A stretch of 64,000 nt of DNA from an uncultured Clostridia bacterium (GCA_934167685.1 CAKPLQ010000002.1:18352-82351), one strand, 5' to 3'. Shown: positions 17,202 to 57,126, counted from the first letter of the stretch. The notes: a model not told the origin generated them from the letters alone. Numbers and translations: made by a program.

Positions 17202-17281
17202 TGCACCGATGGGACCGGTTCTTAACGGTGCAGTAAACATAACGCAAAAATGCACCGTTAAGAACCGGTCCCAAACGTGCA
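17202..17281. repeat. Inverted pair of the 31-nt palindromic repeat (units 17202-17232 and 17251-17281, 18-nt spacer)
   Basis: tgcaccgatGGGACCGGTTCTtaacggtgca ... tgcaccgttaAGAACCGGTCCCaaacgtgca. The inner 22 nt of the two units are perfectly complementary. The pair ends 23 nt before ATG 17304. Confidence 0.85.
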
Positions 17282-17303
17282 AAATGGCTGAAAGGGGCAT
17301 AAA

Positions 17304-18347
17304 ATGAATAGTTTGATGGATTCGTATCTAAATTTTACAGAAAAGAAAATAAAGAAATATATGAAGATAATTTTTGCTACATATTATGATGAAGAGATTG
17401 TAGATGAGTTCTTAAGAACTTATATAAATGCAAGATATTATAATGTTCAAAATACAGACAAACCGGCAAGAGCTTTTTATTTAAGAATTTTAGATGAATT
17501 GGAATACAAAGAGGATTTGTTGATGGAAAAATGCGAAGAAGAGGCAGAAAGCCTAGACGAAAAGCAAGCCAAATTGAACAAGATTCATAAAGTTAAAGAA
17601 GTTTTTGGATATGTTTTATTTTTCGACAACGTTAGAAATATTGAAAATTTTAAAAGTATTGACAGTCTTAAAGAAATTATAGAGAAAATTATAGATTTAG
17701 TTAACTCTGATTACGAGATTAAAAATCCAAAAGATGTTGAGGACAAGCTTTACAAAGAAGTTAAAAGTAACATGATTGATAAAGATGTTTTTTTAGAAAA
17801 GTTCGAAACTGATGAGTTTTCATTAAGCTTTGAGGCTACAGAGTTTAATGAAGATTTGTATAATATTAAGTTACAACATAATGTTAAAATGCCAATGCAA
17901 TATAGTGAAAGGGCAATAGAGAAGGTATTTACAGAAGGAATTATTGCAGAGGATAAGTTACAAATTGAATATATTTTGCTAAGCACAATCGCTATAAGAG
18001 ATATTGTTAATAGCAATTTTAAAGATGCGTATATTGCAGAGTTTGAGCCTTCTTTGTTTAAGAAAAAACAAAAGTTGAATGGAATTTTAGATTTAATTAG
18101 TAATCAGGCTTTGCAGGAGAAAATTAATCTGAATATTAGTTATTCTGATTATAAGAAAAATCAAAAAAATGTGCTAGATTATACTAGCAAAGGCTACAAT
18201 TTTGTGATTACTTTAGATGAGGCTGTAAAAAGTGTTGAGGATGTAGAAAAATTGAAGATGTTTAAATTGGTTATTGCACCAAAAGATTTAGTATTATATA
18301 AACAAATTAAAGAAGATAACTCATTAACAAATGTAATGGTAAATTAA
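17304..18347 (+). CDS. Cytoplasmic hypothetical protein (347 aa, acidic/Lys-rich)
   Basis: RBS gaaagggg. No signal peptide or TM segment. It lies directly upstream of the McrB-like NTPase gene. No confident family assignment was possible. Confidence 0.6.
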   Translation: MNSLMDSYLNFTEKKIKKYMKIIFATYYDEEIVDEFLRTYINARYYNVQNTDKPARAFYLRILDELEYKEDLLMEKCEEEAESLDEKQAKLNKIHKVKEVFGYVLFFDNVRNIENFKSIDSLKEIIEKIIDLVNSDYEIKNPKDVEDKLYKEVKSNMIDKDVFLEKFETDEFSLSFEATEFNEDLYNIKLQHNVKMPMQYSERAIEKVFTEGIIAEDKLQIEYILLSTIAIRDIVNSNFKDAYIAEFEPSLFKKKQKLNGILDLISNQALQEKINLNISYSDYKKNQKNVLDYTSKGYNFVITLDEAVKSVEDVEKLKMFKLVIAPKDLVLYKQIKEDNSLTNVMVN

Positions 18348-18381
18348 CGAAATGATGTGATTTTCGAAAGGAAGAAAAAAT

Positions 18382-19935
18382 ATGGAAACATACGGAAGAT
18401 TTTTATTTGAATTTTTACACCAATTCTTTTCTGGATTTGGAGAGATTTTTGGTGGCTTATGGAGAGGAATACTTAGTATTTTTAATGTTCCAGGATATTA
18501 TTATATAATTCAAAATTATGCAAATGATTTTAAAGTATCAGAATGGTTTTTGACTGGATTAGCTATTATTTGTATGCTTGTTGTTATTGGAGGAATTGAT
18601 GGAATAATAGCATTTTTCTTGAAAAAGCATATAAAATGGAGAAAAAAGGTTCTTGACCAAGAAGAATTATTAAAACAAATTGATACTTTAAATGGGCAAG
18701 TTGAAGAATTGGTTGATGAAAAACTTAAATTGCTATCTATGAAAACTCCAGAATTGGGTGTAAATTCTAATGGAATAAGTACAGGAGCTGATAGAACTGC
18801 ACTTGCTGCTGCTCAGTCACAGGCTAATGATGAAGAACAAATTGACCCTAATAGTCAAAGTAGATTCTCTAAATTAACTTTAATAGACCAAGAATATGCA
18901 AAATATAAACAAAAAGATTATCACGATTCATTTACACTACCAGAATTTTGTTATAGATTTAGAAATTTTGCAGCTAGTAAGTTAAAATTGTATTATAGTG
19001 AAAAAATGATTAGATTATTCGTATCAGCTATAGCTTCAACAAAGCTAGTTATCCTACAGGGTATTTCTGGTACTGGTAAAACTTCTATATCTCTTGCTTG
19101 GGGTAACTTTGTAAAGCATCCTTCTTGTGTTGCTTCAGTACAGCCTTCTTGGAGGGATAGAACAGATATTTTTGGGTACTTAAACGAGTTCACTAAAAAG
19201 TTTAACGAAACAGATTTCTTAGCATATTTGTACGAAGCTGGATATACTGATGAAATTTTTACAGTAATCCTAGACGAGATGAACTTGGCGCGTGTTGAGT
19301 ACTATTTTGCAGAAATGTTGTCAATTCTAGAAATGCACAGTACAAAAGATTGGAAGATTGAGGTTGTGCAAAGCTCATGGCCAACAGACCCTAAAAAGTT
19401 AATAAGAGGTAAATTACAAATTCCACCAAATGCTTGGTACATAGGAACAATCAATAACGACGACTCTACATTCATGGTAACAGATAAGGTATACGATAGA
19501 GCTATGCCTATAGATATTAACGAAAAAGGTATTGAATTTGAACCTGATGATATTGATGCACTTGATGTTAATTATTCATATTTAAATGGTCTATTTGAAA
19601 AAGCTATGGTAGATTATGCAATTTCAACGGCTACTTTAAAGAAAATTGATGACATGGATAACTACACAATTAAGCACTTTAGAGTTGCTTTTGGTAACCG
19701 TATTGTAAAACATATGAGAAAATTCGTACCTGTTTATGTAGCTTGTGGAGGAGATGAAACTGAAGCTGTAGATTACTTTATGGCTAAAAAGGTTTTAAGA
19801 AAATTCGAAGCTCTTAACTTGGCATTAATTAGAGATGAAATTGACGGATATATAGAATTCTTAGATAAAAACTTTGGTAAAGGCAAAATGTCTGAATGTA
19901 TAGAATTCTTACTAAGATTGAAGAAGATGTCATAG
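18382..19935 (+). CDS. Membrane-anchored McrB-family (AAA_5) AAA+ NTPase
   Basis: Two N-terminal TM segments (GILSIFNVPGYYYII; FLTGLAIICMLVVIGGIDGIIAFFL) precede a coiled coil. Walker A is LQGISGTGKTS and Walker B is VILDEMNLARVEYYFAEMLSILE. 'PPNAWYIGTINNDDSTFMVTDKVYDRAMPIDI' parallels McrB 'PENVYIIGLMNTADRS..D.ALRRRF.FI'. Confidence 0.75.
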   Translation: METYGRFLFEFLHQFFSGFGEIFGGLWRGILSIFNVPGYYYIIQNYANDFKVSEWFLTGLAIICMLVVIGGIDGIIAFFLKKHIKWRKKVLDQEELLKQIDTLNGQVEELVDEKLKLLSMKTPELGVNSNGISTGADRTALAAAQSQANDEEQIDPNSQSRFSKLTLIDQEYAKYKQKDYHDSFTLPEFCYRFRNFAASKLKLYYSEKMIRLFVSAIASTKLVILQGISGTGKTSISLAWGNFVKHPSCVASVQPSWRDRTDIFGYLNEFTKKFNETDFLAYLYEAGYTDEIFTVILDEMNLARVEYYFAEMLSILEMHSTKDWKIEVVQSSWPTDPKKLIRGKLQIPPNAWYIGTINNDDSTFMVTDKVYDRAMPIDINEKGIEFEPDDIDALDVNYSYLNGLFEKAMVDYAISTATLKKIDDMDNYTIKHFRVAFGNRIVKHMRKFVPVYVACGGDETEAVDYFMAKKVLRKFEALNLALIRDEIDGYIEFLDKNFGKGKMSECIEFLLRLKKMS

Positions 19936-19952
19936 AAAGGATAGAAAAGTAA

Positions 19953-21077
19953 ATGGACTTAAATGTAATGAAACTTGCCAATATGGAAAGTGGACAATCA
20001 TCACAGGATTTTTTGAACAAGGTTGATTCTAAATTAATGATTGATGTTAACAAAAGTCAAATTGTAGAAAATGATGAATGGATTGATATGGTTGAGTTTT
20101 CACTTCCACATATAGAAAAGGCTTTGACAAAAGAGATTAAAAATATTGTTACTGAAGAGGAAATAATAAAAATTGAATTAATTAAAAAGGTAAGTGTTGA
20201 AAGTGTAAAACATTTGTCAAAAAACGTAAACTATGTTGATAAATTTAATCAGAAAACAGGAGAAGTAATTCCTAAAAAGATTTTGAATGCATATAAAGAA
20301 GAGACTTTTATTACATATGAAAATAGATTCTTATACAGCCTTATAAAATTGATTGAAGATTACATGTATTTGCGCGAAAAAGACCAACAAACCGAGTATA
20401 AAGGTAAGAATGAAGAAAAGGCAAATTATCAAGCTGAAGTTAAATACAAAAAAGAAAAAATTAAAGTTAACTTTGATTATTCATCAGAAAGCAATATTGG
20501 CGCTAAAAAGTCAGATGATACAGCTGAAAGAATTCAAGATATTAAAAAGAAAATTAAAGATTTAAAGACTACTAATGTATATCAATTATTACAATCAAAA
20601 AGGATTACTCTTGTAAAATCACCTTTAAAAATGACTAATGTATTGTTAAAAAATGTGCATTTTCAATATGCGGTCAAATTGTGGAATTATTTAAGCGAAC
20701 AAATAGAAATAAAAGATAAAGCAGTAAAAACAAATAAAGTCTATGAAGAAAATGGAATTGCAAAAAAACTTGTAGATGAAAATGTATTTTTAATGCATTT
20801 GATTTTTAAAAATCGTGATATAGAAGAGAAACTGAAAGGTCAAAAAAAGAGTGCATTAGAGGATAAAAAGGCAAGAAAAGAATTGACTGATGATTTGATA
20901 GAAAAAATAATTGAGTTAAATCCTGATATATCTGACAAGGATTTGAAGCAGATGATTGCAGATAAACTAATATTAATGAAAACTCGTAAGTTAATTTCTT
21001 TAAAACCTATTGAAGATAGATTTAAAGAGCGAATTAATAAATATATGGTACTAGCAAAAGAAGTGAGGTTAAAATAA
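19953..21077 (+). CDS. Cytoplasmic partner protein of the McrB-like NTPase; possibly McrC/DUF2357-like but with no recognisable nuclease motif
   Basis: It starts 18 nt after the NTPase gene and its stop is 2 nt before the next sipW. 'ITYENRFLYSLIKLIEDY' and 'TNVLLKNVHFQYAVKLWNYL' recall the N-terminal region of McrC-like partners. The C-terminus is Lys/Glu-rich with no PD-(D/E)xK pattern. Confidence 0.5.
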   Translation: MDLNVMKLANMESGQSSQDFLNKVDSKLMIDVNKSQIVENDEWIDMVEFSLPHIEKALTKEIKNIVTEEEIIKIELIKKVSVESVKHLSKNVNYVDKFNQKTGEVIPKKILNAYKEETFITYENRFLYSLIKLIEDYMYLREKDQQTEYKGKNEEKANYQAEVKYKKEKIKVNFDYSSESNIGAKKSDDTAERIQDIKKKIKDLKTTNVYQLLQSKRITLVKSPLKMTNVLLKNVHFQYAVKLWNYLSEQIEIKDKAVKTNKVYEENGIAKKLVDENVFLMHLIFKNRDIEEKLKGQKKSALEDKKARKELTDDLIEKIIELNPDISDKDLKQMIADKLILMKTRKLISLKPIEDRFKERINKYMVLAKEVRLK

Positions 21078-21079
21078 AA

Positions 21080-21649
21080 ATGAATGACGAAAGAGAAAAT
21101 GTGGGGAGAAAGTGTGTTCAAATTATTTGGAATATATTTTCTAGAATATTAACAATAGCTGTGATACTGGTATGTATAGTAATTATAGTACAAAAGGTAA
21201 GTAATAATAAGGAGTCATTTTTTGGATATAGAATATTCAGAGTTCAAACAGGAAGTATGATTCCGAAGTACCAAATAGGAGATGTTATTCTTGTAAAAGA
21301 GAAAGAGCCAAGCAAAATTAAAGTTGGTGATGACGTTACATATAATGGAGAAGCTAGTTCTGTTAAAGGACTGTTGATAACCCATAGAGTAATAAATATC
21401 GAAGAGATTGATGGTCAAAGAGTTTTCCATACCAAAGGTATTGCTAACAATTTGGAAGACCCTATTGTATATGAACATCAGATTAATGGAGTAGTTCAAA
21501 GCAAATTATATATTTTAACATTTATTTGTACTTTGTTTAATAATAAATATGTATTCTATTTTTGTGGAATCTTACCTTTATCTATATATGTAGTTTTTAG
21601 ATTTTTTAAAGGAAAGCGTTACGAAGATATTGAAAGGGAAAACAGATGA
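21080..21649 (+). CDS. sipW: SipW-type signal peptidase I
   Basis: N-terminal TM, 'FFGYRIFRVQTGSMIPKYQIGDVILVKE', 'IKVGDDVTY', 'LITHRVINI', 'HTKGIANNLEDP', and C-terminal TM(s). Confidence 0.85.
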   Translation: MNDERENVGRKCVQIIWNIFSRILTIAVILVCIVIIVQKVSNNKESFFGYRIFRVQTGSMIPKYQIGDVILVKEKEPSKIKVGDDVTYNGEASSVKGLLITHRVINIEEIDGQRVFHTKGIANNLEDPIVYEHQINGVVQSKLYILTFICTLFNNKYVFYFCGILPLSIYVVFRFFKGKRYEDIERENR

Positions 21650-22284
21650 GAAAAAAAAGGATAGTGTTTTTTTTAGAAATATTGTGTATTATTTCATTAT
21701 TGATTACAATGTTATCTATACAAAGAACTTATGCAAGATATTTTGAAATGGTTGATACAACATATGATACACATATTAAAAGATGGCTAATTAAAGTTAA
21801 TTCACACAATATACATGAAGAGCAGACTCTTACAGAAGTTATGCAACCTGTTTTAGTAGAAGATGAAAACAGAAATAGCAATGTTTTAGTTCCTGGTGGA
21901 ACTGGATATTTTGATATGGTATTAGATTACAATTATGTTGATGTGGCTTTTCAGTATGAATTTTCTATAGAACAGCTTAATACCAACCAATTAGCGGATT
22001 TTGAGTTATATGGATATGAAATAATTGATGGCGATACTTCAACTGTTACAGAAACAAATGAATTGAAGGGCGTAATTGAACCAGAGACTGATGTTAATAG
22101 TGCAGGAGAAAAGATTCGAGAAGTAAGGTTTTTGTTTAGATGGAATGATGGTGATGGTAGTACTATGAATAATCAAGCTGATACGCAGTTTAGAGGCGAA
22201 GCAAATACTAATCAGCAAGATTTACATACTATTTTAAACTATAGAGCGACTTTAAAGTTTAGTCAGTATATACCAACAACATAA
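21646..22284 (+). CDS. Secreted TasA-like protein with a SipW-dependent-type signal peptide (paralogue of 15464-16105)
   Basis: It overlaps the sipW stop (ATGA). The N-terminus is MRKKRIVFFLEILCIISLLITMLSIQRTYARYFE. It carries 'RWLIKVNSHNI' and 'FLFRWNDGDGSTMNNQAD'. Confidence 0.6.
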   Translation: MRKKRIVFFLEILCIISLLITMLSIQRTYARYFEMVDTTYDTHIKRWLIKVNSHNIHEEQTLTEVMQPVLVEDENRNSNVLVPGGTGYFDMVLDYNYVDVAFQYEFSIEQLNTNQLADFELYGYEIIDGDTSTVTETNELKGVIEPETDVNSAGEKIREVRFLFRWNDGDGSTMNNQADTQFRGEANTNQQDLHTILNYRATLKFSQYIPTT

Positions 22285-22302
22285 AAAGAGGGGTGAAAAT
22301 TG

Positions 22303-22440
22303 ATGGAAATTAAAAATATTAAAACATCAAAATTAGAAAATAAAGAATTATTAGATGTTCAAAAACAAGTTGAAAGTTTTTTAAAGTTTTTAAATACTGA
22401 ATATGATACTGTTAAAAAATTAGAGGAGGAAAATTCATGA
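22303..22440 (+). CDS. Small ORF (45 aa, MEIKNIKTSKLENKELLDVQKQVESFLKFLNTEYDTVKKLEEENS), not in the ORF track
   Basis: RBS aaagagggg lies 7 nt upstream. Its stop overlaps the next start (ATGA at 22437-22440). It carries the RBS gaggagga of the downstream gene. It is predicted helical and acidic. Confidence 0.35.
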   Translation: MEIKNIKTSKLENKELLDVQKQVESFLKFLNTEYDTVKKLEEENS

Positions 22441-24044: not shown

Positions 24045-24050
24045 TATAGG

Positions 24051-24659: not shown

Positions 24660-24673
24660 AAGAGGTATGAAAT

Positions 24674-25315: not shown

Positions 25316-25342
25316 ATTTACAAAAGAAGGAATGGAGGATTT

Positions 25343-26041: not shown

Positions 26042-26081
26042 CTTGTAATAAAAATGTAATAAAAATGTAATATTAAATTCA

Positions 26082-28289: not shown

Positions 28290-28317
28290 CGATGTGTGAA
28301 CAAACATTGACCGGTCT
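28287..28317. repeat. Degenerate single unit of the 31-nt repeat
   Basis: tgaacaaacattGACCGGTCTctgcggtgca. The right half is identical to the consensus and the left half is decayed. Confidence 0.5.
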
Positions 28318-28357
28318 CTGCGGTGCAATTTTTTTCGTGAATTTTTTATAAATAAAT

Positions 28358-28517: not shown

Positions 28518-28928
28518 ATGAGTGAAGCCAACGAAAACAACAGTAGCAATAATGAGTTGTTGCTACAAATTTTGCAAACATTAAATATGTTTCAACTACA
28601 AACTACAGCTTCTTTTAATGAATTAAGAGCTGAAATAAAAGAAAATAAAAAAGAGATACAAAAGAGTAGAGAAATTGAAAATGCACATTGGGAAGAGAAC
28701 AAAAGGCTTTGGGCAGAAAACAAAAAACGTTGGGAAGAGAATGACAAACGCTGGGAAGAGAATAACAAACGCTGGGAAGAGAATGACAAACGTTGGGAAC
28801 AAAATGAAAAAACAAGAGAAAAAGAGCATCAAGAATTGTTGGATATTCTTTTACAGTTTGACATTACGATATCAACAAAATTAGGAGACCCAAATGTAGA
28901 AAAAATGAAAAAAGTGCTAGGAATGTAA
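28518..28928 (+). CDS. Small cytoplasmic protein with six tandem heptads WE(E/Q)N(D/N/K)KR (hypothetical)
   Basis: RBS aaggagga. HWEENKRLWAENKKRWEENDKRWEENNKRWEENDKRWEQNEKT is encoded by a 21-nt periodic DNA repeat at about 28688-28810. Confidence 0.6.
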   Translation: MSEANENNSSNNELLLQILQTLNMFQLQTTASFNELRAEIKENKKEIQKSREIENAHWEENKRLWAENKKRWEENDKRWEENNKRWEENDKRWEQNEKTREKEHQELLDILLQFDITISTKLGDPNVEKMKKVLGM

Positions 28929-33196: not shown

Positions 33197-33201
33197 ATAG
33201 A

Positions 33202-33817: not shown

Positions 33818-33899
33818 TGCACCGATGGGACCGGTTCTCAACGGTGCAAAAATGCATCATTTTGAAACTGCACCGCAGAGAACCGGTCCCAAACGTGCA
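33818..33899. repeat. Inverted pair of the 31-nt repeat (33818-33848 and 33869-33899, 20-nt spacer)
   Basis: tgcaccgatGGGACCGGTTCTcaacggtgca ... tgcaccgcagAGAACCGGTCCCaaacgtgca. It lies 32 nt upstream of the engB start. Confidence 0.85.
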
Positions 33900-38855: not shown

Positions 38856-40505
38856 GTGAAAAATTTATTACGTAAACATAGAAAATCAAACAAAAAGAAT
38901 CGATTTCAAAAATATGTGTTAGTTATTTTTGCCCTTATAATGTCAACCTTTGCATGGCTTGCTTATTCCAAAATATTAAATACTCATTTAAATATACATG
39001 TTGCAGCATGGGACATGGAGTATTTTATAGAGGGTGAGAAAAAGGAAAATCCAATAGGCATCGAGTTTCCAACGTTATATCCGCAAATGCCGGAACAAAC
39101 GGTAACTGTGGATATTTTGAATAATGGAGAGGCATTGGTAGATTTAAGTTATGATGTTAAAGCAATATCAATAGCAGGAGTAACTTATGAACTAGTAAGG
39201 ACAGGAGAACAGCCAACAACTGAAAATTATATAAATATAGCTGACCCCGTAACAGCTACTAATCAAGAGACAGGGGAAGAAATATCTAAAGGCGAAATTA
39301 TAAACGATATAACAAAATTTCCGTTTACATTAACTATAGAACATTCTTTGCAAGTGGCTTCGAAAGATACGGCATATCTAAAAGTCACAGCTAATTGGCT
39401 TGGAGATAATGATGATTTAGATTCGCAATGGGGCTATATTGTAGGAAAGTATTTTATGGATAACCCAGATGCAACTTCTGCAATTAGCATTACTCTAAGC
39501 ATCGATTCTTATCAAGCAAATGACGAGATTAAGGCCGATAAGAATACTACTGCTGGAACGTATCTTCCAACAGGATTTACTCAAGTGGAAGGCACTACTT
39601 TAGATAATGGCTTAACAATTCAAGATAGTAAAGGCAATCAATATGTGTGGGTCGAAGTCCCTAAAACAGCTGAAGTTTACCCAACTGCAGGCCTAAATGT
39701 TACTGCTTTTTCTGATGATGATTATACTAAAATAGAAAATGATTTGCATACATATACGAGTGTGTATAGAAATGGAACAAGTTATAAAGATGAATATTAT
39801 TCAGATGCAGCAACAGGATTGACAAAAGACCAGTATGCAGAATTAAAGAAAAAGATGTTAAAAAGTGTATACAAAAATGGAGGATTTTATGTTGGAAAAT
39901 ATGAAACAGGAATAGAAAATGCGCCAAAAACATCTGGTTCATCATCAACAGCACCAACAGAAATACCAGTAATAAAGCAAAATGCATATCCATATAATTG
40001 GGTAACATGTAGTCAAGCACAAACATTAGCAAGTAGTATGGAATCTGGAAGTTATACAAGTAGTTTGATGTTTGGAGTACAATGGGATTTAGTATTAAAA
40101 TATTTAGAGACAAAAGGAACAGCACAAGCTGATTTAAAAACAGATAGTACAAGTTGGGGAAATTACTATAATAATTTATGGAATATAACAAATGCAAATT
40201 CTAAGTATTATTATTATGTTAATTCAAAATGGACAAGTGGAGCATATGGAAAAAAAGCTTCAGTTGAAACTATATTATTATCAACAGGAGCAAGTGAAGA
40301 ATTTAGTAAACAAGGAATATATGATATAGCTGGAAATGTAATGGAATGGACATTAGAATATGCTTTTAATTCGAGGTGGTCTTGTGCTAATCGTGGCGGC
40401 TCTTACAATACCAATGGCAGCCTCTCTTATCAAGCTAGCACCCGCGACGACGGTGGTACGGATGTTTACGATAACAACCTCGGCTTCCGTGTAGCACTTT
40501 ATTAA
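38856..40505 (+). CDS. Secreted fusion protein: TasA-like N-terminal domain with a SipW-dependent-type signal, plus a C-terminal FGE-sulfatase (SUMF1-like, C-type-lectin fold) domain
   Basis: GTG start. The N-terminus is ..YVLVIFALIMSTFAWLAYSKILNT, with 'LKVTANWLGDNDDLD'. The C-terminal part has 'GGFYVGKYE', 'MFGVQWD', 'GIYDIAGNVMEWTLE', and 'RGGSY......R.......NLGFRVALY'. Confidence 0.7.
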   Translation: MKNLLRKHRKSNKKNRFQKYVLVIFALIMSTFAWLAYSKILNTHLNIHVAAWDMEYFIEGEKKENPIGIEFPTLYPQMPEQTVTVDILNNGEALVDLSYDVKAISIAGVTYELVRTGEQPTTENYINIADPVTATNQETGEEISKGEIINDITKFPFTLTIEHSLQVASKDTAYLKVTANWLGDNDDLDSQWGYIVGKYFMDNPDATSAISITLSIDSYQANDEIKADKNTTAGTYLPTGFTQVEGTTLDNGLTIQDSKGNQYVWVEVPKTAEVYPTAGLNVTAFSDDDYTKIENDLHTYTSVYRNGTSYKDEYYSDAATGLTKDQYAELKKKMLKSVYKNGGFYVGKYETGIENAPKTSGSSSTAPTEIPVIKQNAYPYNWVTCSQAQTLASSMESGSYTSSLMFGVQWDLVLKYLETKGTAQADLKTDSTSWGNYYNNLWNITNANSKYYYYVNSKWTSGAYGKKASVETILLSTGASEEFSKQGIYDIAGNVMEWTLEYAFNSRWSCANRGGSYNTNGSLSYQASTRDDGGTDVYDNNLGFRVALY

Positions 40506-40582
40506 AGCGTAGACCTGTATCCAATACAGCGATACACTAGAATGGACTCAACCAAAGAATTAAATATAAAAATTAGAACGAG

Positions 40583-40654
40583 TGCACCGCAGGGATCGGT
40601 TCTCTGCGGTGCAAAATAAAAAATGCACGGCAGAGAACCGGTCCCAAACGTGCA
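40583..40654. repeat. Inverted pair of the 31-nt repeat (40583-40613 and 40624-40654, 10-nt spacer)
   Basis: tgcaccgcaGGGATCGGTTCTctgcggtgca ... tgcacggcagAGAACCGGTCCCaaacgtgca. It ends 21 nt before ATG 40675. Confidence 0.85.
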
Positions 40655-40674
40655 AAATGAAAGAGAGGTAAAAA

Positions 40675-41991
40675 ATGAGAAAATTACCAAATGGAGTAAG
40701 TAACTATGAAAAAATAGTGAAGGAAAATATGATATATGTAGATAAAACGATGTATATAGAGAAAATGGAAAATTTATCAGATAGTACAATAATGTTTTTG
40801 CGCCCAAGAAAATTTGGAAAGACATTATTTACAAGTACGTTGGAGTGTTATTATGATAAAAACAGAGCTGATAAATTTGATGAGTTATTTGGAAAAACAT
40901 ATATAGGAAAAAATCCCACTCCTAATAAAAATAGATATTGTGTATTAAGATTTAATTTTTCTGGAATAAGTACAAATACAGTAGAAGAAGCAATGAGAGG
41001 ATTTAGAGAAAAGGTTAATATAGGCATAAATGGATTTGTGACAGATTATGGACTAGAGTTTTATAATAATCCTGAGCAAAGCACAGAAGGAATATTAGGG
41101 AGTATATTTGAAGCATTTAGAACACAAAGAAGAGGCGAAAAAATATATGTAATAATAGATGAATACGACCATTTTGCAAATGAGTTATTGGGATTTAAAA
41201 CAGACGAATTCAAAGATTTAGTTGCTAAAAATGGAAAAGTAAGAAAATGGTACGAAATATTAAAAGAAGGAACAGAAACAGTAGTTGATAGGATATTTAT
41301 TACAGGAGTAGCACCAATAACGTTAGATAGTACAACAAGTGGGTTTAATATAGCAAGAGATATAACAAAAAATATAATGTTTAATGATATGCTAGGATTT
41401 AGTAAAGAAGATGTAAAATATTTAATGACAGAAATTGATGTACCAGAAGAGTTATTGCCAATAATAAAAGAAAATTATGATGGATACATATTTTCTAATA
41501 TGATAAAAGGCGATTATGAAAAATACAAAATATACAACTCAAATATGACTTTATATTTTTTAAATGCATATCAAGAACAACAGAAAGTGCCAGAAGAGCT
41601 TGTAGATGTAAACATATTAAGTGACTATGGAAAAATAGAAGCATTTATGGATTTATGCCAAAATATGAATAAAATAGAATTGCTAGAAAAGATTGTGGCA
41701 GAAGAACCAGTAGAAAGTGGATTGACAGAAAAGTTTAATGCAGAGATAAGCTTTGGAGAAAAAGAGCTAATTTCATTGCTATTTTATTTGGGATATTTAA
41801 CAATAAAAGAAAATGAATTTGGAGTGTTAAAATTTGTAACACCAAATGAAGTGATAAGAACAATTTATAGTAATTATTTTCTAGAATATATAAAAAGAAA
41901 AGCCGGCATCAAAGAAGAAATAAAAAATGCACGGCATAGAACCTGTCCCATCGGTGCAGTTAAGTTTTTGCTAAAGGGGGAACAAAAATGA
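40675..41991 (+). CDS. AAA-ATPase_like (PF09820-type) protein, apparently C-terminally truncated
   Basis: '[29 protein letters not shown]...[21 protein letters not shown]' is the hallmark N-terminus of this family. The last ~21 codons (..[20 protein letters not shown]) are read from a repeat unit and the uvrA RBS region. The usual C-terminal PD-(D/E)XK_9 domain seems to be absent. Confidence 0.7.
41928..41958. repeat. Single, slightly degenerate unit of the 31-nt repeat
   Basis: tgcacggcatAGAACCTGTCCCatcggtgca. It ends 30 nt before the uvrA ATG. Confidence 0.7.
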
Positions 41992-52683: not shown

Positions 52684-52704
52684 AAACGCCGACGAGGCGT
52701 TTTT
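52684..52704 (+). terminator. rpmF terminator
   Basis: aaacgcc / ggcgttt stem, 5-nt loop, and T5. Confidence 0.75.
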
Positions 52705-52856
52705 GTGCTGAAATTCATTATTATTTGATATTGTTTGAAATTACTCAAATTCGAAAAAACTAAAATGTGAAAGGCTATTGTATTGCAGGAATGTATAAAA
52801 CATTGCCCAGAATGGTATAATAGCAATAATTGTAAAAATTTAAGGAGGAATTTAAA

Positions 52857-54290
52857 GTGAAAAATTTAAGAAAAACTAAAATTGTAGGAACAATCGGTCC
52901 AGCAAGTGAAAACAAATTAGAAGAATTATTTGATGCAGGGTTAAATGTATGCAGAATTAATTATTCACATGGTAGCTGGGATGAACAATCAGAAAAAACA
53001 GAAACAATAATTAGACTAAGAGAAGAAAAAGATTTACCAATTGCTTTGCTATTAGATATGAAAGGTCCGGAAATTAGAACAGGAATGTTGTATACAGGAA
53101 AAAATACAAAAATCCAATTAAAAGATGGACAAAAATTCACATTAGTTAATGAAGATATTACAGGAGACGAAGAAAAAGTTTCTGTAACATATAAAGAATT
53201 ATATAAAGATGTTCAACCAGGTACAAAAATCTTAATCGATGATGGTGCAATTGAATTAAAAGTTGACGAAGTTGTAGGAAAAGACATTGTTACAACAGTT
53301 GTTCATGGAAATGGATTAGGAAGTAGAAAAACTATGAACTTACCAGGAACAATCATCAGATTACCAGGTTTAGCAGAAAAAGATATTGCAGATTTAAAAA
53401 CAGCTTGTGAACATGAGTATGACTTTGTTGCAATCTCATTTGCAAGAAACTTAGATGATATAAGACAAGTAAGAAAAGTATTAGACGAAAATGGTGGAAA
53501 AGATATCCAAATAATAACAAAAATTGAAAATGTTGAAGGATTAGCAAACTTAGATGATATTCTAAACGAAGCTGATGCTCAAATGATAGCTCGTGGAGAT
53601 ATGGCTACAGAAACTGACTTTACAGAACCACCAGTTGTTCAAAAGAGAATTATTAGAACAGCAAATAAATTATTTAAACCAGCTATAACAGCTACACAAA
53701 TGTTGGAATCAATGACACATCAACCATTACCAACAAGAGCTGAAGCAAGTGATGTTGCAAATGCTATTTATGATAGAACAAGTGCAATAATGCTTTCAGG
53801 AGAATGTGCTCAAGGTGATTATCCAGTTGAATGTGTAAAGACAATGGTTAAAATAGCTAACAGAGTTGAACCAGAAATCCATTACTGGAAGAGATTTGAC
53901 AATAATGAGTATTTAGATTTATCAGATGATGAAGCTAAAATTGCTTATTCTTCATGTGTAACAGCTAAAAACTTTAATGCTGATGCAATTGTTGTATACA
54001 CACATACAGGAGATTCTGCTAGAACATTAGCTGGTCTTGGAGCTGGATGCCCAATCTTAGCTGTAACAGATAACAAGAGAACATTCCATCAATTAGCTTT
54101 AGCTTGGAACGTAACTCCAGTATTTGTTGAAGGTGAAGAAACAATTGAAGAAACAGTTGAAAAAGGAATTCAAAAATTAAGAGAAAAAGAAATCCTTGAA
54201 AAAGGTGATGTTGTAGTTCTTTTAGGTGGAGCTCAAACATTTACTAAAGGTATAGATAAAAAAGTTCTTGGAGGAATCGTAAGAATTTAG
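52857..54290 (+). CDS. pyk: Pyruvate kinase
   Basis: GTG start after aaggagga. 'KTKIVGTIGPAS', 'NYSHG', 'LLDMKGPEIRTG', 'ISFARN', 'IITKIEN.EG', 'MIARGDM', 'ATQMLESM', 'MLSGE'. Confidence 0.95.
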   Translation: MKNLRKTKIVGTIGPASENKLEELFDAGLNVCRINYSHGSWDEQSEKTETIIRLREEKDLPIALLLDMKGPEIRTGMLYTGKNTKIQLKDGQKFTLVNEDITGDEEKVSVTYKELYKDVQPGTKILIDDGAIELKVDEVVGKDIVTTVVHGNGLGSRKTMNLPGTIIRLPGLAEKDIADLKTACEHEYDFVAISFARNLDDIRQVRKVLDENGGKDIQIITKIENVEGLANLDDILNEADAQMIARGDMATETDFTEPPVVQKRIIRTANKLFKPAITATQMLESMTHQPLPTRAEASDVANAIYDRTSAIMLSGECAQGDYPVECVKTMVKIANRVEPEIHYWKRFDNNEYLDLSDDEAKIAYSSCVTAKNFNADAIVVYTHTGDSARTLAGLGAGCPILAVTDNKRTFHQLALAWNVTPVFVEGEETIEETVEKGIQKLREKEILEKGDVVVLLGGAQTFTKGIDKKVLGGIVRI

Positions 54291-54343
54291 TTATAAAATA
54301 ATATTTTTAGCCATCATCTTGTTTTGACGAAATGCTAAACATA

Positions 54344-54389
54344 AAATATCACAATTTTGATAGAAATATCATTGTTGTGATATTTTTTT
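54344..54389 (+). terminator. pyk terminator
   Basis: aaatatcacaa / ttgtgatattt form an 11-bp stem with a 20-nt loop, followed by T7. Confidence 0.65.
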
Positions 54390-54408
54390 ACTTGACTATT
54401 CAGTCTAA

Positions 54409-54437
54409 TTGATAAAAATTTCTTAAAAATATATAAT
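54409..54437 (+). promoter_or_regulatory. Candidate sigma-A promoter for accD-accA
   Basis: TTGATA, 17 nt, TATAAT. Confidence 0.5.
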
Positions 54438-54462
54438 ATCAAAAGATTGAAGAGGAGAGCGA

Positions 54463-56172
54463 GTGAGGGCAAAAATGATTATAGATAAGATAAAAAAGAT
54501 GAATAAAGTAGAGAAAAGAAGTAAAAATGAAAAAGCTTCTGATATGTTGATTGGAAAATGGATTAAATGTGATAATTGTAAGGAGATATTGTATAAAGAA
54601 GACGTACACAATAATTTTAGTGTGTGTCCTAATTGTGGCAAACATTTTAGGATTTCTGCAAGAAGGAGAATTAGACAAATTGCAGATGATGATACTTTTG
54701 TAGAAATTGGAGCAGAAATACAGACAAAAGACCCATTAAAATTTGAAGGATATTTAAAAAAAGTTGAACTGTTGAAACAGAAAACTCAAATTGATGAAGC
54801 TGTGAAATGTGGTGTCTGTAAAATTAATGGAGAGAGTGCAGTTATTGCAGTTATGGATGGTAATTTTATGATGGGAAGTATGGGAAGTGCTGTTGGAGAG
54901 AGAATAACTTTAGCAATAGAAACTTCGATTGAAAAAAGGCTTCCTTTAATAATATTTTGCGTATCAGGTGGGGCAAGGATGCAAGAAGGAATTATATCAC
55001 TTATGCAAATGGCAAAAACCTCAGCAGCATTAGCTAAACATGATAAAGAGGGGCTATTATATATATCTGTTTTAACTGACCCAACTACAGGTGGAGTTAC
55101 GGCAAGTTTTGCGAGCCTAGGTGACATAATAATCGCTGAGCCTAATGCTTTAATAGGGTTTGCGGGTCCTAGAGTAATAGAACAAACTATAAGAGAAAAG
55201 TTACCAGAGGGTTTCCAAAGGTCTGAGTTCTTGCTTGAGCATGGGTTTGTGGATATGATTGTTGAAAGAAAAGACATGAAAGAGACTTTATATAGGATAT
55301 TGAAGATGCATAAAGTTGGATTGAAATGCGATAAAGATATAAAAATATTGAATGAGGAAAGGACTGATGCAAAGGCTAAAACTGCATGGGAAAAAGTTTG
55401 CTTAGCAAGAATGGCTGATAGACCTAAAGCATTAGATTATATAAATAAAATATTTACAGATTTTGTAGAATTACATGGAGATAGAAGCTTTGGAGATGAT
55501 AAATCAATAATTGGTGGCCTGGCATTATTGAATACTGTTCCGGTTACAGTGATTGGAGAACAAAAAGGAAAAAATGTAAAAGAAAATATGGATAGAAATT
55601 TCGGGATGCCAAATCCAGAAGGATATAGAAAAGCTTTGCGATTGATGAAGCAAGCAGAAAAATTTAATAGGCCGATAATAACTTTTATAGATACTCCAGG
55701 AGCATATCCGGGTATTGGGGCTGAAGAGAGAGGCCAAGGGGAAGCGATTGCAAGAAATATGTTTGAGATGTCAAAAATTAAAGTTCCAATCATATGTGTG
55801 GTAATAGGCGAAGGTTCAAGCGGAGGAGCTTTGGCTATTGCTGTAGGGGATAGGATTGTGATGCTTGAAAATGCAGTATATTCGATACTTTCGCCAGAGG
55901 GATTTGCTAGCATTTTGTATAAGGATTCGAGCAAAGCTCAAGAGGCTGCTGAAAATATGAAGTTGACAGCACAAGATTTAATGGATTTAGGTGTTATAGA
56001 TAAAATTGTTGAAGAACCAGAAGAAGGTGCTCAAGCAAATTTTAAGATGGTGGCTGATGAGTTGAAGTCTTATATTGCGAAGTCTATAGATGAGCTTAGT
56101 TCAATTGCGTGTATTTCGAAGGATGAGTTGATTGAGGAAAGATATAAAAAATTTAGAAAAATGCACGGATGA
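54463..56172 (+). CDS. accDA: Acetyl-CoA carboxylase carboxyltransferase, fused beta (AccD) and alpha (AccA) subunits
   Basis: The AccD Zn ribbon '[29 protein letters not shown]' and 'GGARMQEG' are followed in the same ORF by AccA '[19 protein letters not shown]', '[11 protein letters not shown]', '[22 protein letters not shown]', '[10 protein letters not shown]'. The GTG start lies 5-6 nt after gaggag. The stop lies inside a repeat unit. Confidence 0.9.
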
Positions 56173-56258
56173 GAACCGGTCCCAACGGTGCACTTTTTAC
56201 ATAGTTTTGCATAGTTGAAGGCTGTTTTGCACCGTTGGGACCGGTTCTCATCCGTGCA
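56162..56258. repeat. Perfect inverted pair of the 31-nt repeat (56162-56192 and 56228-56258, 35-nt spacer)
   Basis: tgcacggatgAGAACCGGTCCCaacggtgca and its exact reverse complement. The spacer contains catagtttt-gcatagtt. The pair overlaps the accDA stop and ends 27 nt before the fabI ATG. Confidence 0.9.
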
Positions 56259-56284
56259 AGAATTAAATATGGAGGTAAAATTAA

Positions 56285-57055
56285 ATGATTTTAAATAACA
56301 AAAAAATAGTAATAATGGGGATAAGAAATAAATGGAGTATTGCTTGGGGAGCGGCGAAGTCTGCTAATGAGCAGGGCGCACAGGTGATTTTTACATGTGG
56401 TTCAAAAGAAAAGATTGAGAAAATAAAAGAATTAACAGACGAAATTCCTAATTCAGATGTTTTTGCATGTGATGCAAGTTCTGATATAAGTATTCAAGAA
56501 TGTTTTGAAGAAATTAAAAACAAATATGGAAAAGTAGATGGAATTCTTCATGCGATTGCTCATGCTAATACAGAAGATTTACGAAATGATTTTATTTTGA
56601 CATCAAGAAGTGGATACGCTCATGCATGTGATGTAAGCGCTTATTCATTGATTGCAGTGGCACAAATAGCCAAGAAAATAAATCTATTAAGTGAAGGTGC
56701 AAGTATTGTTTCATATACATATTATGGGGCAGAGAAAGTAGTTGAAGGATATAATGTAATGGGAGCAGCAAAAGCAGCATTAGAAGCTAATATTAGGTAT
56801 CTGGCAAATGATTTGGGAAAATATAAAATACGAATTAATGGTATTTCTGCAGGCCCAATAAAGACATTATCTGCTAAAGGAATAAAAGATTTTAATATAA
56901 TATTAGATGAGGTGGAAAATAAAGCACCATTACACCAAAATGTAACGCCAAAGCAGGTTGGCGATGCTACAAGTTTTTTATTTAGCGATATGTCTTCTGC
57001 TATTACTGGCGAAATCATTCATGTCGATAATGGTTTTTCAATTATTGGGGCATAA
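56285..57055 (+). CDS. fabI: Enoyl-[acyl-carrier-protein] reductase (NADH) FabI
   Basis: 'KKIVIMGIRNKWSIAWGAA', 'HAIAHA', 'YNVMGAAKAALEA..RYLA.DLG', 'INGISAGPIKTLSAKGI', 'GEIIHVDNGF'. Confidence 0.92.
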   Translation: MILNNKKIVIMGIRNKWSIAWGAAKSANEQGAQVIFTCGSKEKIEKIKELTDEIPNSDVFACDASSDISIQECFEEIKNKYGKVDGILHAIAHANTEDLRNDFILTSRSGYAHACDVSAYSLIAVAQIAKKINLLSEGASIVSYTYYGAEKVVEGYNVMGAAKAALEANIRYLANDLGKYKIRINGISAGPIKTLSAKGIKDFNIILDEVENKAPLHQNVTPKQVGDATSFLFSDMSSAITGEIIHVDNGFSIIGA

Positions 57056-57059
57056 AAAC

Positions 57060-57126
57060 TGCACGTTTGGGACCGGTTCTCTGCGGTGCAAAATTTGCAC
57101 CGCAGAGAACCGGTCCCAAACGTGCA
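57060..57126. repeat. Perfect inverted pair of the 31-nt repeat (57060-57090 and 57096-57126, 5-nt spacer)
   Basis: tgcacgtttGGGACCGGTTCTctgcggtgca aaatt tgcaccgcagAGAACCGGTCCCaaacgtgca. It can form a hairpin of about 31 bp starting 5 nt after the fabI stop. Confidence 0.9.

What the first reader, a model, noticed from the sequence alone, without database searches (positions are those of the whole stretch)
17202..57126. Dispersed 31-nt quasi-palindromic repeat family (TGCAC-N4-GGGACCGGTTCT-N5-GTGCA) with an ACCGGT core
**Seen in the sequence**
- There are 14 units at 8 loci: 17202/17251, 28287 (decayed), 33818/33869, 40583/40624, 41928, 51933/51969, 56162/56228 and 57060/57096.
- The 12-nt core and the TGCAC/GTGCA termini are nearly invariant.
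- The N4/N5 positions vary among a small set: cgat, gttt, cgtt, cgca and taacg, caacg, ctgcg, ctgcc, catcc, caaac.
- Each unit is itself an imperfect palindrome.
- Five loci are inverted pairs, and two of those are perfect (56162/56228 and 57060/57096), with spacers of 5-35 nt. These can form very long hairpins.
- Placement is non-random. Five loci end 21-32 nt upstream of a start codon, immediately 5' of the RBS (17304, engB, 40675, uvrA, fabI). Two touch stop codons (accDA, fabI). One lies inside a CDS (asnB).

**Inference**
- This behaves like a REP/BIME- or MITE-like element, or an RNA processing/stability module.
- I do not recognise the sequence as a described family.
- No RAYT or transposase gene lies in the window.
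Basis: seen in the sequence. Interest (0 to 1): 0.7.

Follow-up and report, generated by a model that had tools for sequence, protein, structure and literature searches.

The report
REP-like repeats with their own transposase
The 31-nt repeats are real and are a REP/BIME-like family of small intergenic repeats in uncultured gut Clostridia; in related genomes the same repeats flank a single-copy transposase gene, which makes this an undescribed member of a known class of bacterial repeat rather than a new kind of element.

Summary
The window has 13 intact units plus one decayed unit of TGCAC-N4-GGGACCGGTTCT-N5-GTGCA at 8 unrelated loci, against a chance expectation of 0.

The exact pattern occurs in only 4 of about 185,000 species genomes, all uncultured Clostridia. 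There it forms singles, inverted doublets and direct tandem arrays, and it fills many intergenic gaps.

The decisive result is a 262-aa HUH/Tyr (Y1) transposase gene in a close relative.
- It hits Pfam Y1_Tnp and NCBIfam "REP-associated tyrosine transposase".
- Its best structural match is E. coli TnpA_REP bound to a REP hairpin.
- It is flanked by inverted arrays of these units.

Homologues at 63-97% identity sit in the same syntenic slot and are always flanked the same way.
- The repeat core changes as the protein diverges.
- One homologue (P0023) is flanked by units with exactly the window's arm variants.

The system is therefore REPtron/TIRtron-like, with the repeats most likely mobilised in trans. 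It departs from classic REPs in four ways:
- there is no GTAG tag;
- a conserved linear core sits between fast-changing, genome-specific arms;
- the units form direct tandem arrays;
- the transposase carries an extra C-terminal domain.

One array splits asnB in the window, while some relatives carry units in frame at the same site. No transposase gene lies in the window itself.

The parts
17202..17281 (.). Inverted doublet (REPIN/BIME-like): unit 17202-17232 (+), 18-nt spacer, unit 17251-17281 (-). Heads face outward. It ends 22 nt before the ATG at 17304.
   Evidence: As ssDNA it folds at -33.4 kcal/mol, z -11.
28298..28327 (+). Decayed single unit with a 1-nt deletion in the core and an intact right arm CTGCGGTGCA. 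It lies between a terminator-like hairpin and a promoter-like site.
33818..33899 (.). Inverted doublet: 33818-33848 (+), 20-nt spacer, 33869-33899 (-). It lies between purA and engB, both on the - strand.
40583..40654 (.). Inverted doublet: 40583-40613 (+, core GGGATCGGTTCT), 10-nt spacer, 40624-40654 (-). It ends 20 nt before the ATG at 40675.
41928..41958 (-). Single unit with core GGGACAGGTTCT. It forms the 3' end of the AAA-ATPase_like ORF (40675-41991) and ends 29 nt before the uvrA start.
51933..51999 (+). Direct tandem pair with a 36-nt period, inserted in the variable loop of asnB (- strand). It splits the gene into an N-terminal fragment (51918-52250) and a C-terminal fragment (50300-51973).
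56162..56258 (.). Perfect inverted doublet in the rare '-+' arrangement: 56162-56192 (-), 35-nt spacer, 56228-56258 (+). It contains the accDA stop codon and ends 26 nt before the fabI start.
   Evidence: I15, 100% complementary. Folds at -41.2 kcal/mol.
57060..57126 (.). Perfect inverted doublet: 57060-57090 (+), 5-nt spacer, 57096-57126 (-). It starts 4 nt after the fabI stop. Its right-hand unit corresponds to the single unit kept at this site in the relative genome CAKPDZ.
   Evidence: (I12). Folds at -45.3 kcal/mol, z -15.6.

Best explanation
The repeats are the non-autonomous part of a REP/RAYT-type system (a REPtron or TIRtron) in a clade of uncultured, low-GC, small-genome gut Clostridia.

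**Shown.**
- The unit has an invariant core, (T)TTGGGACCGGTTCT, between two variable arms that end in short inverted termini (TGCAC...GTGCA in this genome).
- Units occur as singles, as inverted doublets with the GGG ('head') ends outward, and in relatives as direct tandem arrays with 32- or 36-37-nt periods.
- A single-copy 262-aa Y1 HUH transposase gene is itself bracketed by inverted arrays of the units. It is vertically inherited, sitting in a conserved slot next to the hydrogenase operon in relatives. It is not inside this window.

**Inferred by homology with E. coli TnpA_REP and IS608 TnpA.**
- The enzyme binds the conserved core on single-stranded DNA, probably at replication forks. Hairpins formed by self-complementary units or by doublets present the core.
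- It cuts and rejoins DNA through a 5'-phosphotyrosine made by the invariant Tyr119, with His60/His62 holding the metal.
- This spreads, replaces and deletes units in trans.
- Slippage and recombination between units then change array length and arm type.
- Selection leaves copies only where they are tolerated: between a stop codon and the next ribosome-binding site, or in a permissive protein loop.
- Any effect on mRNA stability or termination is secondary and untested.
For: **The repeat family**
- It is real and non-random.
- The exact pattern occurs only in 4 related MAG species out of 185,579.
- There are 175 units in 97 arrays across 349 kb of window plus loci. They are overwhelmingly intergenic and abut gene ends: head-to-start distances peak at 17-24 nt, and head-to-stop distances are 0-9 nt.
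- Inverted pairs are '+-' 16 times and '-+' twice.

**The transposase**
- L005 1244-2047(-) hits Pfam Y1_Tnp (E 1.8e-9, 38 bits, cutoff 23) and NCBIfam NF047646 'REP-associated tyrosine transposase' (E 1.5e-16, full-length).
- The HUH histidines and the catalytic Tyr are invariant in 33 homologues.
- The AlphaFold model (pLDDT 81) best matches 4er8_A, TnpA_REP bound to a REP hairpin (E 1.4e-6, TM 0.72). IS608, ISDra2 and IS200 TnpA follow.

**The association**
- The gene is flanked by inverted arrays with heads outward in L005, L040, L042, L044, L046, L048, L055, L057, L049 and L051.
- Synteny (SipL-YunB-RAYT-NuoE-like) is conserved down to 63% protein identity.
- Only one copy is found in the 349 kb held (window plus L001-L038).

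**Co-variation**
- The core is GGGACCGGTTCT where the protein is at least 72% identical.
- It is GGGACCGGGTAT at 63-66% identity.
- It is CATTTGGGGACGGGATTG, as a perfect 27-nt TIR, at 58% identity.
- L055 (P0023) is flanked by units with the window's own arms.

**Dynamics**
- At orthologous intergenic sites, copy number and arm type differ while the flanks stay more than 90% identical.
- Presence/absence differences exist between the window and CAKPDZ.
- One array disrupts asnB in the window, and units lie in frame at the same site in relatives.
Against: - The transposase gene is not in the window. Its presence in the window's own genome is inferred from L055's matching arm variants, not shown on one contig.
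- The NCBIfam score (60.6 bits) is below the equivalog cutoff (80), and identity to E. coli RayT is only about 16%.
- No GTAG or CGTC tag is present.
- Many units do not fold on their own, and in distant relatives the central ACCGGT palindrome is lost. Recognition may therefore be of a linear motif rather than a REP-type hairpin.
- No clean empty-versus-filled site pair with well-aligned flanks was found. No excision or insertion event has been seen directly, so mobility is inferred.
- Most arrays occupy orthologous positions across species. Turnover may therefore be mostly in situ (conversion or slippage) rather than transposition.
Confidence: 0.8

Rival explanations
1. The units are primarily host cis-elements acting in RNA. 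They would be intercistronic or 3'-UTR hairpins that stabilise, process or terminate transcripts, or tune translation of the downstream gene. The transposase link would be incidental or ancestral.
For: - Units sit almost only in transcribed gaps between co-directional or convergent genes and are rarer between divergent genes (13-15 against 2-6).
- Heads lie a fixed 17-24 nt from start codons.
- Doublets make very stable hairpins.
- Occupancy of orthologous gaps is retained across species.
- Tandem arrays of at least 2 units are oriented antisense to the flanking co-directional genes 23 times against 8.
Against: - Single units are sense or antisense 13 against 13.
- Many units have no stable fold.
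- No T-tract terminators or promoters coincide with units.
- Some copies lie between a terminator and the next promoter (28298; L004).
- Copy number at a given site varies from 1 to 4 between close relatives.
- One array breaks asnB.
- There is no Rfam match.
- The invariant part is the core that tracks the transposase, not the pairing.
Confidence: 0.12
2. The units are MITEs: deletion derivatives of a conventional insertion sequence, moved by a DDE transposase that recognises the TGCAC/GTGCA terminal inverted repeats.
For: The elements are short, have inverted termini and differ in presence between relatives.
Against: - No target-site duplications flank any of the 8 window loci.
- The termini are the most variable part between genomes (TGCAC, GGTAC, TGCGC, TGTGTC, GGGAC), whereas the internal core is invariant.
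- No IS with these ends was seen in about 440 kb.
- The only associated gene is a Y1 HUH enzyme.
Confidence: 0.04
3. The core is a double-stranded-DNA binding site for an abundant host protein, such as a nucleoid-associated protein, a global regulator or a DNA-uptake receptor. Arrays would be phased (32 nt is about 3 helical turns) for cooperative binding.
For: - The 12-nt core is invariant across species while the flanks drift.
- Arrays have 32-nt phasing.
- The transposase carries a C-terminal helical domain with a faint HTH_23 resemblance (E 0.09-0.2).
Against: - The core is asymmetric and is not a dyad in distant relatives.
- Copies avoid coding sequence almost completely, unlike uptake sequences.
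- The only protein demonstrably linked to the motif is the flanked Y1 transposase.
- The 36-37-nt and other spacings are as common as 32 nt.
Confidence: 0.04

Closest known systems
REPtron: REP/BIME (REPIN) sequences with a RAYT (TnpA_REP), as in E. coli and Pseudomonas (Nunvar 2010; Ton-Hoang 2012; Bertels & Rainey 2011; PMC5581495)
   Same: - Short, abundant extragenic repeats occur as singles, inverted doublets and clusters.
- A single-copy, vertically inherited Y1 HUH transposase is flanked by the repeats in inverted orientation.
- The repeat sequence is specific to its transposase and co-varies with it.
- The closest solved structure is TnpA_REP (4er8).
   Different: - There is no GTAG or CGTC tag.
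- The conserved part is a linear core in the middle of the unit rather than the stem.
- Many units are not palindromic.
- Direct tandem arrays with 32-37-nt periods are common.
- The transposase has an extra C-terminal domain of about 115 aa and only about 16% identity to E. coli RayT.
- The host is a Firmicute. The papers read here state that only Group 2/3 RAYTs, analysed there in Escherichia, Pseudomonas and Neisseria, are associated with REPINs (PMC5581495; bioRxiv 10.1101/2021.07.10.451892).
TIRtron: TIRYT genes flanked by GGGGWSAS-type terminal inverted repeats (Di Nocera 2013, PMC3733652), equated with subclass 2.1 of TnpA_REP-like proteins that carry a C-terminal HTH domain (Quentin 2018, PMC6006769)
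   Same: - The RAYT-like protein is longer and has a C-terminal helical extension.
- The flanking inverted repeats contain a GGG(G)AC motif.
- The 58%-identical homologue in L060 is flanked by a perfect 27-nt TIR, CATTTGGGGACGGGATTGAAATGCCGG, whose GGGGACGG fits GGGGWSAS at 7 of 8 positions and aligns with the window core.
- Di Nocera et al. already noted that some TIR families are moderately abundant and organised in dimers or clusters.
   Different: - Here the TIR has expanded into a dense genome-wide family: about 0.2 units per kb in the window and up to about 1.5 per kb in relatives' loci.
- Quentin et al. found no REP-like sequences near subclass 2.1 genes.
- Assignment of this protein to subclass 2.1 was not tested against reference sequences.
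IS200/IS605 family (IS608, ISDra2) and their derived palindrome-associated elements
   Same: They share the Y1 HUH fold and recognition of subterminal structures, presumably on ssDNA.
   Different: - The gene here is single-copy, sits at a fixed syntenic position and has no tnpB.
- Its flanks are identical inverted arrays rather than distinct left and right ends.
- The gene itself does not appear to move.
Rickettsia palindromic elements (RPE)
   Same: Units can sit in frame inside protein-coding genes and be translated as an extra loop. AsnB in relatives carries 'KKEPVPNCTF' twice.
   Different: There is no sequence relation. This is a resemblance recalled from memory, not tested.

Membership tests
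REP/RAYT system (REPtron) | Short (about 20-40 nt) repeat, high copy number, essentially extragenic | tested here: met
   - The unit is 31 nt.
- There are 14 units at 8 loci in 64 kb, and 7 of the 8 loci lie outside gene bodies although about 93% of the window is ORF.
- There are 175 units in 349 kb of window plus related loci.
REP/RAYT system (REPtron) | Each unit is an imperfect palindrome that can form a hairpin | tested here: inconclusive
   - Units with complementary arms fold (-7.1 kcal/mol, z -2.4). Others do not beat shuffles.
- The terminal 5-6 bp pair in 70-99% of unique units, with some covariation (pair 6-26: 0.84 observed against 0.48 shuffled).
- That covariation is confounded by genome-specific subfamilies.
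REP/RAYT system (REPtron) | Inverted doublets (BIME/REPIN) are a common arrangement | tested here: met
   Five of 8 window loci are inverted doublets. Overall there are 16 '+-' and 2 '-+' pairs. Doublet hairpins fold at -33 to -45 kcal/mol.
REP/RAYT system (REPtron) | A Y1 (HUH + Tyr) transposase gene flanked by the same repeats in inverted orientation | tested here: met
   - This holds in relatives, not in the window: L005, L040, L042, L044, L046, L048, L055, L057, L049 and L051.
- L055's flanking units carry the window's own arm variants.
- No Y1 gene lies in the window.
REP/RAYT system (REPtron) | The transposase is single-copy and vertically inherited rather than multi-copy like an IS | tested here: met
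   - There is one copy in the 349 kb held.
- The SipL-YunB-RAYT-NuoE-like neighbourhood is the same from 97% down to 63% identity.
- Whole genomes were not available, so a second copy elsewhere is not excluded.
REP/RAYT system (REPtron) | A conserved GTAG (or CGTC) tetranucleotide at the 5' foot of the hairpin | tested here: not met
   Unit ends are TGCAC, GGTAC, TGCGC, TGTGTC or GGGAC depending on the genome. No GTAG or CGTC tag is present.
REP/RAYT system (REPtron) | The protein scores as a RAYT by curated models or by structure | tested here: inconclusive
   - NCBIfam REP_Tyr_transpos gives 60.6 bits, full-length but below the cutoff of 80.
- Pfam Y1_Tnp is above its cutoff.
- The top Foldseek hit is 4er8 TnpA_REP.
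- A sequence search of the PDB finds nothing.
REP/RAYT system (REPtron) | The transposase binds and cleaves or rejoins its repeat on ssDNA | not testable with these tools
   This needs biochemistry.
TIRtron / TIRYT (TnpA_REP-like subclass 2.1) | A RAYT-like protein with a C-terminal HTH-type extension | tested here: inconclusive
   - A helical extension of about 115 aa is present and modelled with good confidence.
- The HTH_23 hits are not significant (E 0.09-0.2).
- No comparison with reference subclass 2.1 sequences was made.
TIRtron / TIRYT (TnpA_REP-like subclass 2.1) | The gene is flanked by terminal inverted repeats with a GGGGWSAS-like motif | tested here: inconclusive
   - The window-type core TGGGACCG fits 6 of 8 positions.
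- The L060 TIR GGGGACGG fits 7 of 8 and aligns with the window core.
- This was a comparison by eye against the published consensus (PMC3733652).
MITE | Target-site duplications and a parent IS with matching TIRs | tested here: not met
   There are no direct repeats flanking the 8 window loci. No such IS occurs in the sequence examined.
CRISPR array | Repeats separated by unique spacers of similar length, with cas genes nearby | tested here: not met
   Units abut each other with spacers of 1-6 nt in tandem arrays, and loci hold only 1-4 units. They are dispersed through housekeeping operons.
Known structured RNA family (Rfam) | A match to a curated covariance model | tested here: not met
   There are no matches at gathering thresholds in the whole window.

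The most novel reading that the evidence does not exclude
A TIRYT-type Y1 transposase with a C-terminal helical domain may here have given rise to a dense, REPIN-like repeat population in a Gram-positive gut lineage. The literature read here describes that class as not associated with REPs. The population would be inherited vertically with its transposase and partly co-opted by the host. Four observations fit this reading:
- arrays keep the same intergenic slots across species while their arms are rewritten to the genome-specific variant;
- tandem arrays face downstream ribosome-binding sites in a preferred orientation;
- units are translated in frame within AsnB in some species;
- one perfect-armed unit is kept identical across four species.
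Probability: 0.25. Interest if true: 0.6.

Novelty: new member of a known kind. Interest (0 to 1): 0.4.

Why it matters
- According to the papers read here, REP/RAYT systems have been studied almost entirely in Proteobacteria, and only two RAYT groups are accepted as REPIN-associated.
- This is a clear case in uncultured gut Clostridia, with a divergent transposase that carries an extra domain.
- It also offers a graded series of related species in which the repeat core, the arms and the transposase change together. That gives a natural data set for asking which part of the repeat the enzyme reads, and how repeat populations are homogenised at fixed genomic sites.
- Practically, these repeats fill a large share of intergenic DNA in these small genomes.
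  - They will fragment metagenome assemblies.
  - They can mislead gene callers, producing extended or split ORFs such as asnB, the accDA stop codon and the AAA-ATPase C-terminus.
  - They coincide with the two gene-content differences seen between close relatives.

Tried and rejected
- **Rfam and tRNA scans of the whole window:** nothing found.
- **Full-text search for the core on both strands, as DNA and RNA:** no paper.
- **E. coli RayT as a phmmer probe against all six-frame ORFs:** only a marginal hit (E 0.096). That hit later proved to be the real gene once Pfam and NCBIfam were run on ORFs flanked by units on both sides.
- **Sequence search of the PDB with the transposase:** no hit. Structure prediction plus Foldseek was needed.
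- **Target-site duplications:** none seen at the window loci.
- **Clean empty-site comparison:** not obtained. The sites where the window and CAKPDZ differ are too diverged or involve whole-gene differences. Most arrays are orthologous across species.
- **Promoter and terminator consensus scan over 40000-58000:** no unit is flagged.
- **C-terminal domain of the transposase:** only insignificant HTH_23 hits.
- **Source names for the transposase clusters:** none given.
- **Considered and rejected:**
  - CRISPR: there are no spacers.
  - Integron attC: the neighbouring genes are housekeeping genes on both strands, and no integrase was seen.
  - LexA, CIRCE or cre-type operators: the motifs do not fit and the density is far too high.
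  - DNA uptake sequence: copies are excluded from coding DNA.

Full report
**1. The observation**

The pattern TGCAC-N4-GGGACCGGTTCT-N5-GTGCA matches 13 times in the window with at most one mismatch. Dinucleotide-preserving shuffles give 0.00 matches for the full pattern and 0.45 for the 12-mer core with up to two mismatches.

The 'decayed' fourteenth copy is real. It lies at about 28298-28327, with a perfect right arm and a 1-nt deletion in the core. ACCGGT occurs 13 times in this 30%-GC window, and 12 of those are inside units.

The eight loci have unrelated flanks, so this is a dispersed family and not one duplicated segment.

Two details need correcting.
- Only units whose two arms happen to be complementary fold on their own (-7 kcal/mol, z about -2.4). 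Units such as TGCACGTTT...CTGCGGTGCA fold no better than shuffles. The strong structures are the inverted doublets (-33 to -45 kcal/mol, z -11 to -15).
- The asnB copy splits that gene (section 6).

**2. Distribution and architecture**

The exact pattern was scanned against one genome for each of 185,579 species. It occurs in only four, all 'uncultured Clostridia' MAGs from human gut: CAKPDZ, CAKPHD, CAKOYU and the complete 1.55-Mb OV788638. The window belongs to none of them. Its closest relative is CAKPDZ, at roughly 73-93% nucleotide identity depending on the gene.

Anchoring on the core gives 175 units in 97 arrays across 349 kb of window plus loci. Three arrangements occur:
- singles;
- inverted doublets, almost always with the GGG ('head') ends outward (16 '+-' against 2 '-+');
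- direct tandem arrays of 2-4 units, with a period of 32 nt or 36-37 nt.

The 12-nt core is identical in 135 of 175 units across all genomes. The arms are genome-specific:
- TGCAC-CGTT/CGAT/GTTT in the window;
- TGCAC/TGCGC-ATTT with GTTTTG-CTCA or CTGCT-GTGCA in CAKPDZ and CAKOYU;
- GGTAC/GTTAC...GTACC in CAKPHD.

In relatives the 9-nt head arm can itself be repeated. Arrays there also end in 22-nt partial units such as AAGACTGGTTCTTTTTTGCGCA.

**3. Genomic context**

Units are almost entirely intergenic. They are mostly found between co-directional genes, less often between convergent genes, and rarely between divergent ones. They are packed tightly against gene ends. Head ends lie 17-24 nt from a start codon, which is just the ribosome-binding site, or 0-9 nt from a stop codon.

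Tandem arrays are antisense to the flanking co-directional genes 23 times and sense 8 times. Single units show no bias, at 13 against 13. These counts include orthologous loci from several genomes, so they are not independent.

No unit is flagged as terminator-like or promoter-like. Some units lie between a terminator hairpin and the next promoter (28298 in the window; L004).

**4. The transposase**

I listed ORFs that have units within 250 nt on both sides and ran Pfam on ten of them. One of them, L005 1244-2047(-) in CAKPDZ, is a Y1_Tnp (IS200-like) protein (E 1.8e-9, above the curated cutoff).

- NCBIfam's 'REP-associated tyrosine transposase' model aligns over its full length (E 1.5e-16, 60.6 bits), but the score is below the equivalog cutoff of 80.
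- The protein has the HUH motif (H-I/V-H) and the YxHxNPE tyrosine motif. H60, H62 and Y119 are invariant in 33 homologues.
- An AlphaFold model (mean pLDDT 81) has 4er8, E. coli TnpA_REP bound to a REP hairpin, as its best PDB match (E 1.4e-6, target TM 0.72). The IS608, ISDra2 and IS200 transposases follow.
- About 115 C-terminal residues form an extra helical domain. It shows only a faint, non-significant HTH_23 resemblance.

**5. Association and co-variation**

In CAKPDZ the gene is bracketed by the repeats. Upstream lies an array in '+' orientation and downstream an array in '-' orientation, so heads face outward and partial units face the gene. This is a doublet with the gene in the middle.

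The protein family has more than 550 homologues. I fetched the encoding contigs for eleven of them.
- Ten homologues, at 63-97% identity, sit in the same SipL-YunB-(sigma factor)-RAYT-NuoE-like/hydrogenase neighbourhood. Every one with enough flanking DNA has the same bracketing by inverted arrays.
- The repeat changes as the protein diverges. The core is GGGACCGGTTCT while identity is at least 72%, with termini ranging from TGCAC to TGTGTC. It is GGGACCGGGTAT at 63-66%.
- The eleventh, a 58% homologue in a different neighbourhood, is flanked by a perfect 27-nt inverted repeat, CATTTGGGGACGGGATTGAAATGCCGG. There are few other copies nearby.
- The homologue P0023 (L055) is flanked by TGCACCGTT...TAACGGTGCA, TGCACGTTT...CTGCCGTGCA and TGCACGGAT...CATCCGTGCA. 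These are the arm variants seen in the window. It is therefore very probably the transposase of the window's species, or of a very close one.
- Only one copy of the gene is present in the 349 kb held (window plus L001-L038), and none is in the window.

A single-copy, syntenically fixed Y1 gene flanked by its own abundant repeat, with repeat and protein co-varying, is the defining picture of a REPtron (Nunvar 2010; Ton-Hoang 2012; Bertels et al. 2017, PMC5581495; summarised in Quentin et al. 2018, PMC6006769).

**6. Dynamics**

Nearly all arrays occupy orthologous intergenic sites in the different species. Unit number and arm type nevertheless differ while the immediate flanks are more than 90% identical.
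- After the same stop codon there are three 32-nt-period units in CAKPDZ, two in CAKOYU, and two 36-nt-period units with different arms in CAKPHD.
- At another shared locus, CAKPDZ has CTGCT-type units and CAKOYU has GTTTTG-type units.

The arrays are therefore being rewritten in place, by transposase action, gene conversion or slippage. The data do not say which.

Presence/absence differences between the window and CAKPDZ also exist.
- A unit after a stop codon is present only in CAKPDZ.
- The two gene-content differences in the 20 kb that can be compared both end at units. The accDA-fabI segment (window 54303-57094) is replaced by a single unit in CAKPDZ. The AAA-ATPase_like gene (40675-41991) is likewise absent there, and a unit stands at that position.

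In asnB, the tandem pair at 51933-51999 lies in the variable loop between GGKQPM and IVYNGQIYN and shifts the frame.
- It leaves an N-terminal fragment that carries the catalytic Cys (ORF 51918-52250) and a 557-aa C-terminal ORF.
- The same split allele is recorded in many samples (P0134, 98% identical, 57 member sequences), so it is not a sequencing error.
- Some relatives have two or three units in frame at the same place, translated as for example 'KKEPVPNCTF...KREPVPNCTF' (P0133, P0135 and P0137; DNA confirmed in L059). Others have none.

**7. Mechanism**

What is shown: the family, its abundance and context, its physical and evolutionary link to a Y1 HUH transposase, and its turnover.

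What is inferred by homology with TnpA_REP and IS608 TnpA:
- the enzyme recognises the conserved core on single-stranded DNA, presented by hairpins of self-complementary units or of doublets;
- it cuts and rejoins through a phosphotyrosine intermediate;
- it thereby spreads or replaces units in trans.

The core loses its central palindrome in distant relatives, and many units do not fold. Recognition of a linear motif, as proposed for TIRYT-type inverted repeats, is therefore at least as likely as classic hairpin recognition.

Effects on RNA (stabilisation, processing, termination) are plausible side effects but untested, and several observations argue against them as the primary role. No insertion or excision event was observed directly.

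**8. Comparison with what is known, and novelty**

The system works like a REP/RAYT system and meets most of its defining features. It fails the GTAG/CGTC tag, and the unit-hairpin criterion is met only in part.

It also resembles the 'TIRtrons' of Di Nocera et al. 2013 (PMC3733652). These are longer RAYT-like proteins flanked by inverted repeats with a GGGGWSAS motif, and some of those repeats form moderately abundant families in dimers or clusters. Quentin et al. 2018 equate these proteins with TnpA_REP-like subclass 2.1. That subclass has a C-terminal HTH-type domain, and they found no REP-like sequences near its genes. The L060 repeat (GGGGACGG) links the window's core to that motif. I did not test the subclass assignment against reference sequences.

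The sequence is not in Rfam or in any searchable paper, and the source databases give the transposase no name. According to the papers read, only Group 2/3 RAYTs, studied mainly in Gammaproteobacteria and Neisseria, are accepted as REPIN-associated. Group 1 is merely noted as 'also found in the Clostridia'.

This is therefore an undescribed member of a known kind of system, in a new host lineage and with some unusual anatomy.

**9. Verdict**

Interest is moderate at 0.4. The finding is solid and tidy and is useful for work on REP/RAYT evolution and for annotating these gut genomes, but it is not a new principle.

Noticed in passing
window 50300-52250 (- strand); L059: asnB is split into two out-of-frame ORFs by the two-unit array. 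The same split allele is present in many samples (P0134, 57 member sequences). In some related species 2-3 units sit in frame in the same loop and are translated (P0133, P0135, P0137). Others have no insert.
   Followed up: yes
window 54303-57126 versus L034 (CAKPDZ): The accDA-fabI segment, with its own promoter-like site at 54409-54437, is absent from the orthologous site in CAKPDZ. There, pyruvate-kinase-side sequence joins the rpsO-side sequence through a terminator and a single unit. Whether this is an insertion or a deletion, and whether CAKPDZ has these genes elsewhere, is unknown.
   Followed up: partly
window 40583-41991 versus L032 (CAKPDZ): The AAA-ATPase_like (PF09820) gene is absent in CAKPDZ, which has one unit at that position. 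In the window the gene is bracketed by a doublet and a single unit, and its last approximately 20 codons run through unit 41928.
   Followed up: partly
window 56162-56172: The last three sense codons and the TGA stop of accDA lie inside unit 56162-56192, so the repeat supplies the end of the reading frame.
   Followed up: yes
L001 2971, L016 5427, L036 374; L002 5568, L024 4492: A single unit with perfectly complementary arms (TGCACATTTGGGACCGGTTCTTAAATGTGCA) is identical at each of two separate orthologous loci: one shared by CAKOYU, CAKPHD and CAKPDZ (L001/L016/L036) and the other by CAKPDZ and OV788638 (L002/L024). This holds even in CAKPHD, whose other units have different arms. It may be under a different constraint from the arrays.
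   Followed up: no
L004, L005, L010, L015, L036, L038 (array ends): Arrays in relatives are modular. The 9-nt head arm (KGYACATTT) can be repeated 2-3 times at the head end. At the tail end there are 22-nt partial units (AAGAMTGGTWCTKTTTTGNNCA).
   Followed up: partly
L060 3835-3884 and 5066-5092: A 58%-identical homologue of the transposase lies in a different neighbourhood (VWA-RAYT-MutL). It is flanked by a perfect 27-nt inverted repeat, CATTTGGGGACGGGATTGAAATGCCGG, with one degenerate extra copy in a nearby intergenic region. This looks like the low-copy TIRtron state of the same system.
   Followed up: partly
window 31-13041: A giant 4336-aa ORF contains DUF285 (PF03382) repeats, 87-nt internal repeats and larger repeated modules of about 430-470 nt. 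It is probably a surface protein.
   Followed up: partly
window 28668-28832: A 21-nt tandem repeat (heptad W-E/A-E-N-x-K-R) lies inside the 136-aa ORF 28518-28928, which has no Pfam match.
   Followed up: no
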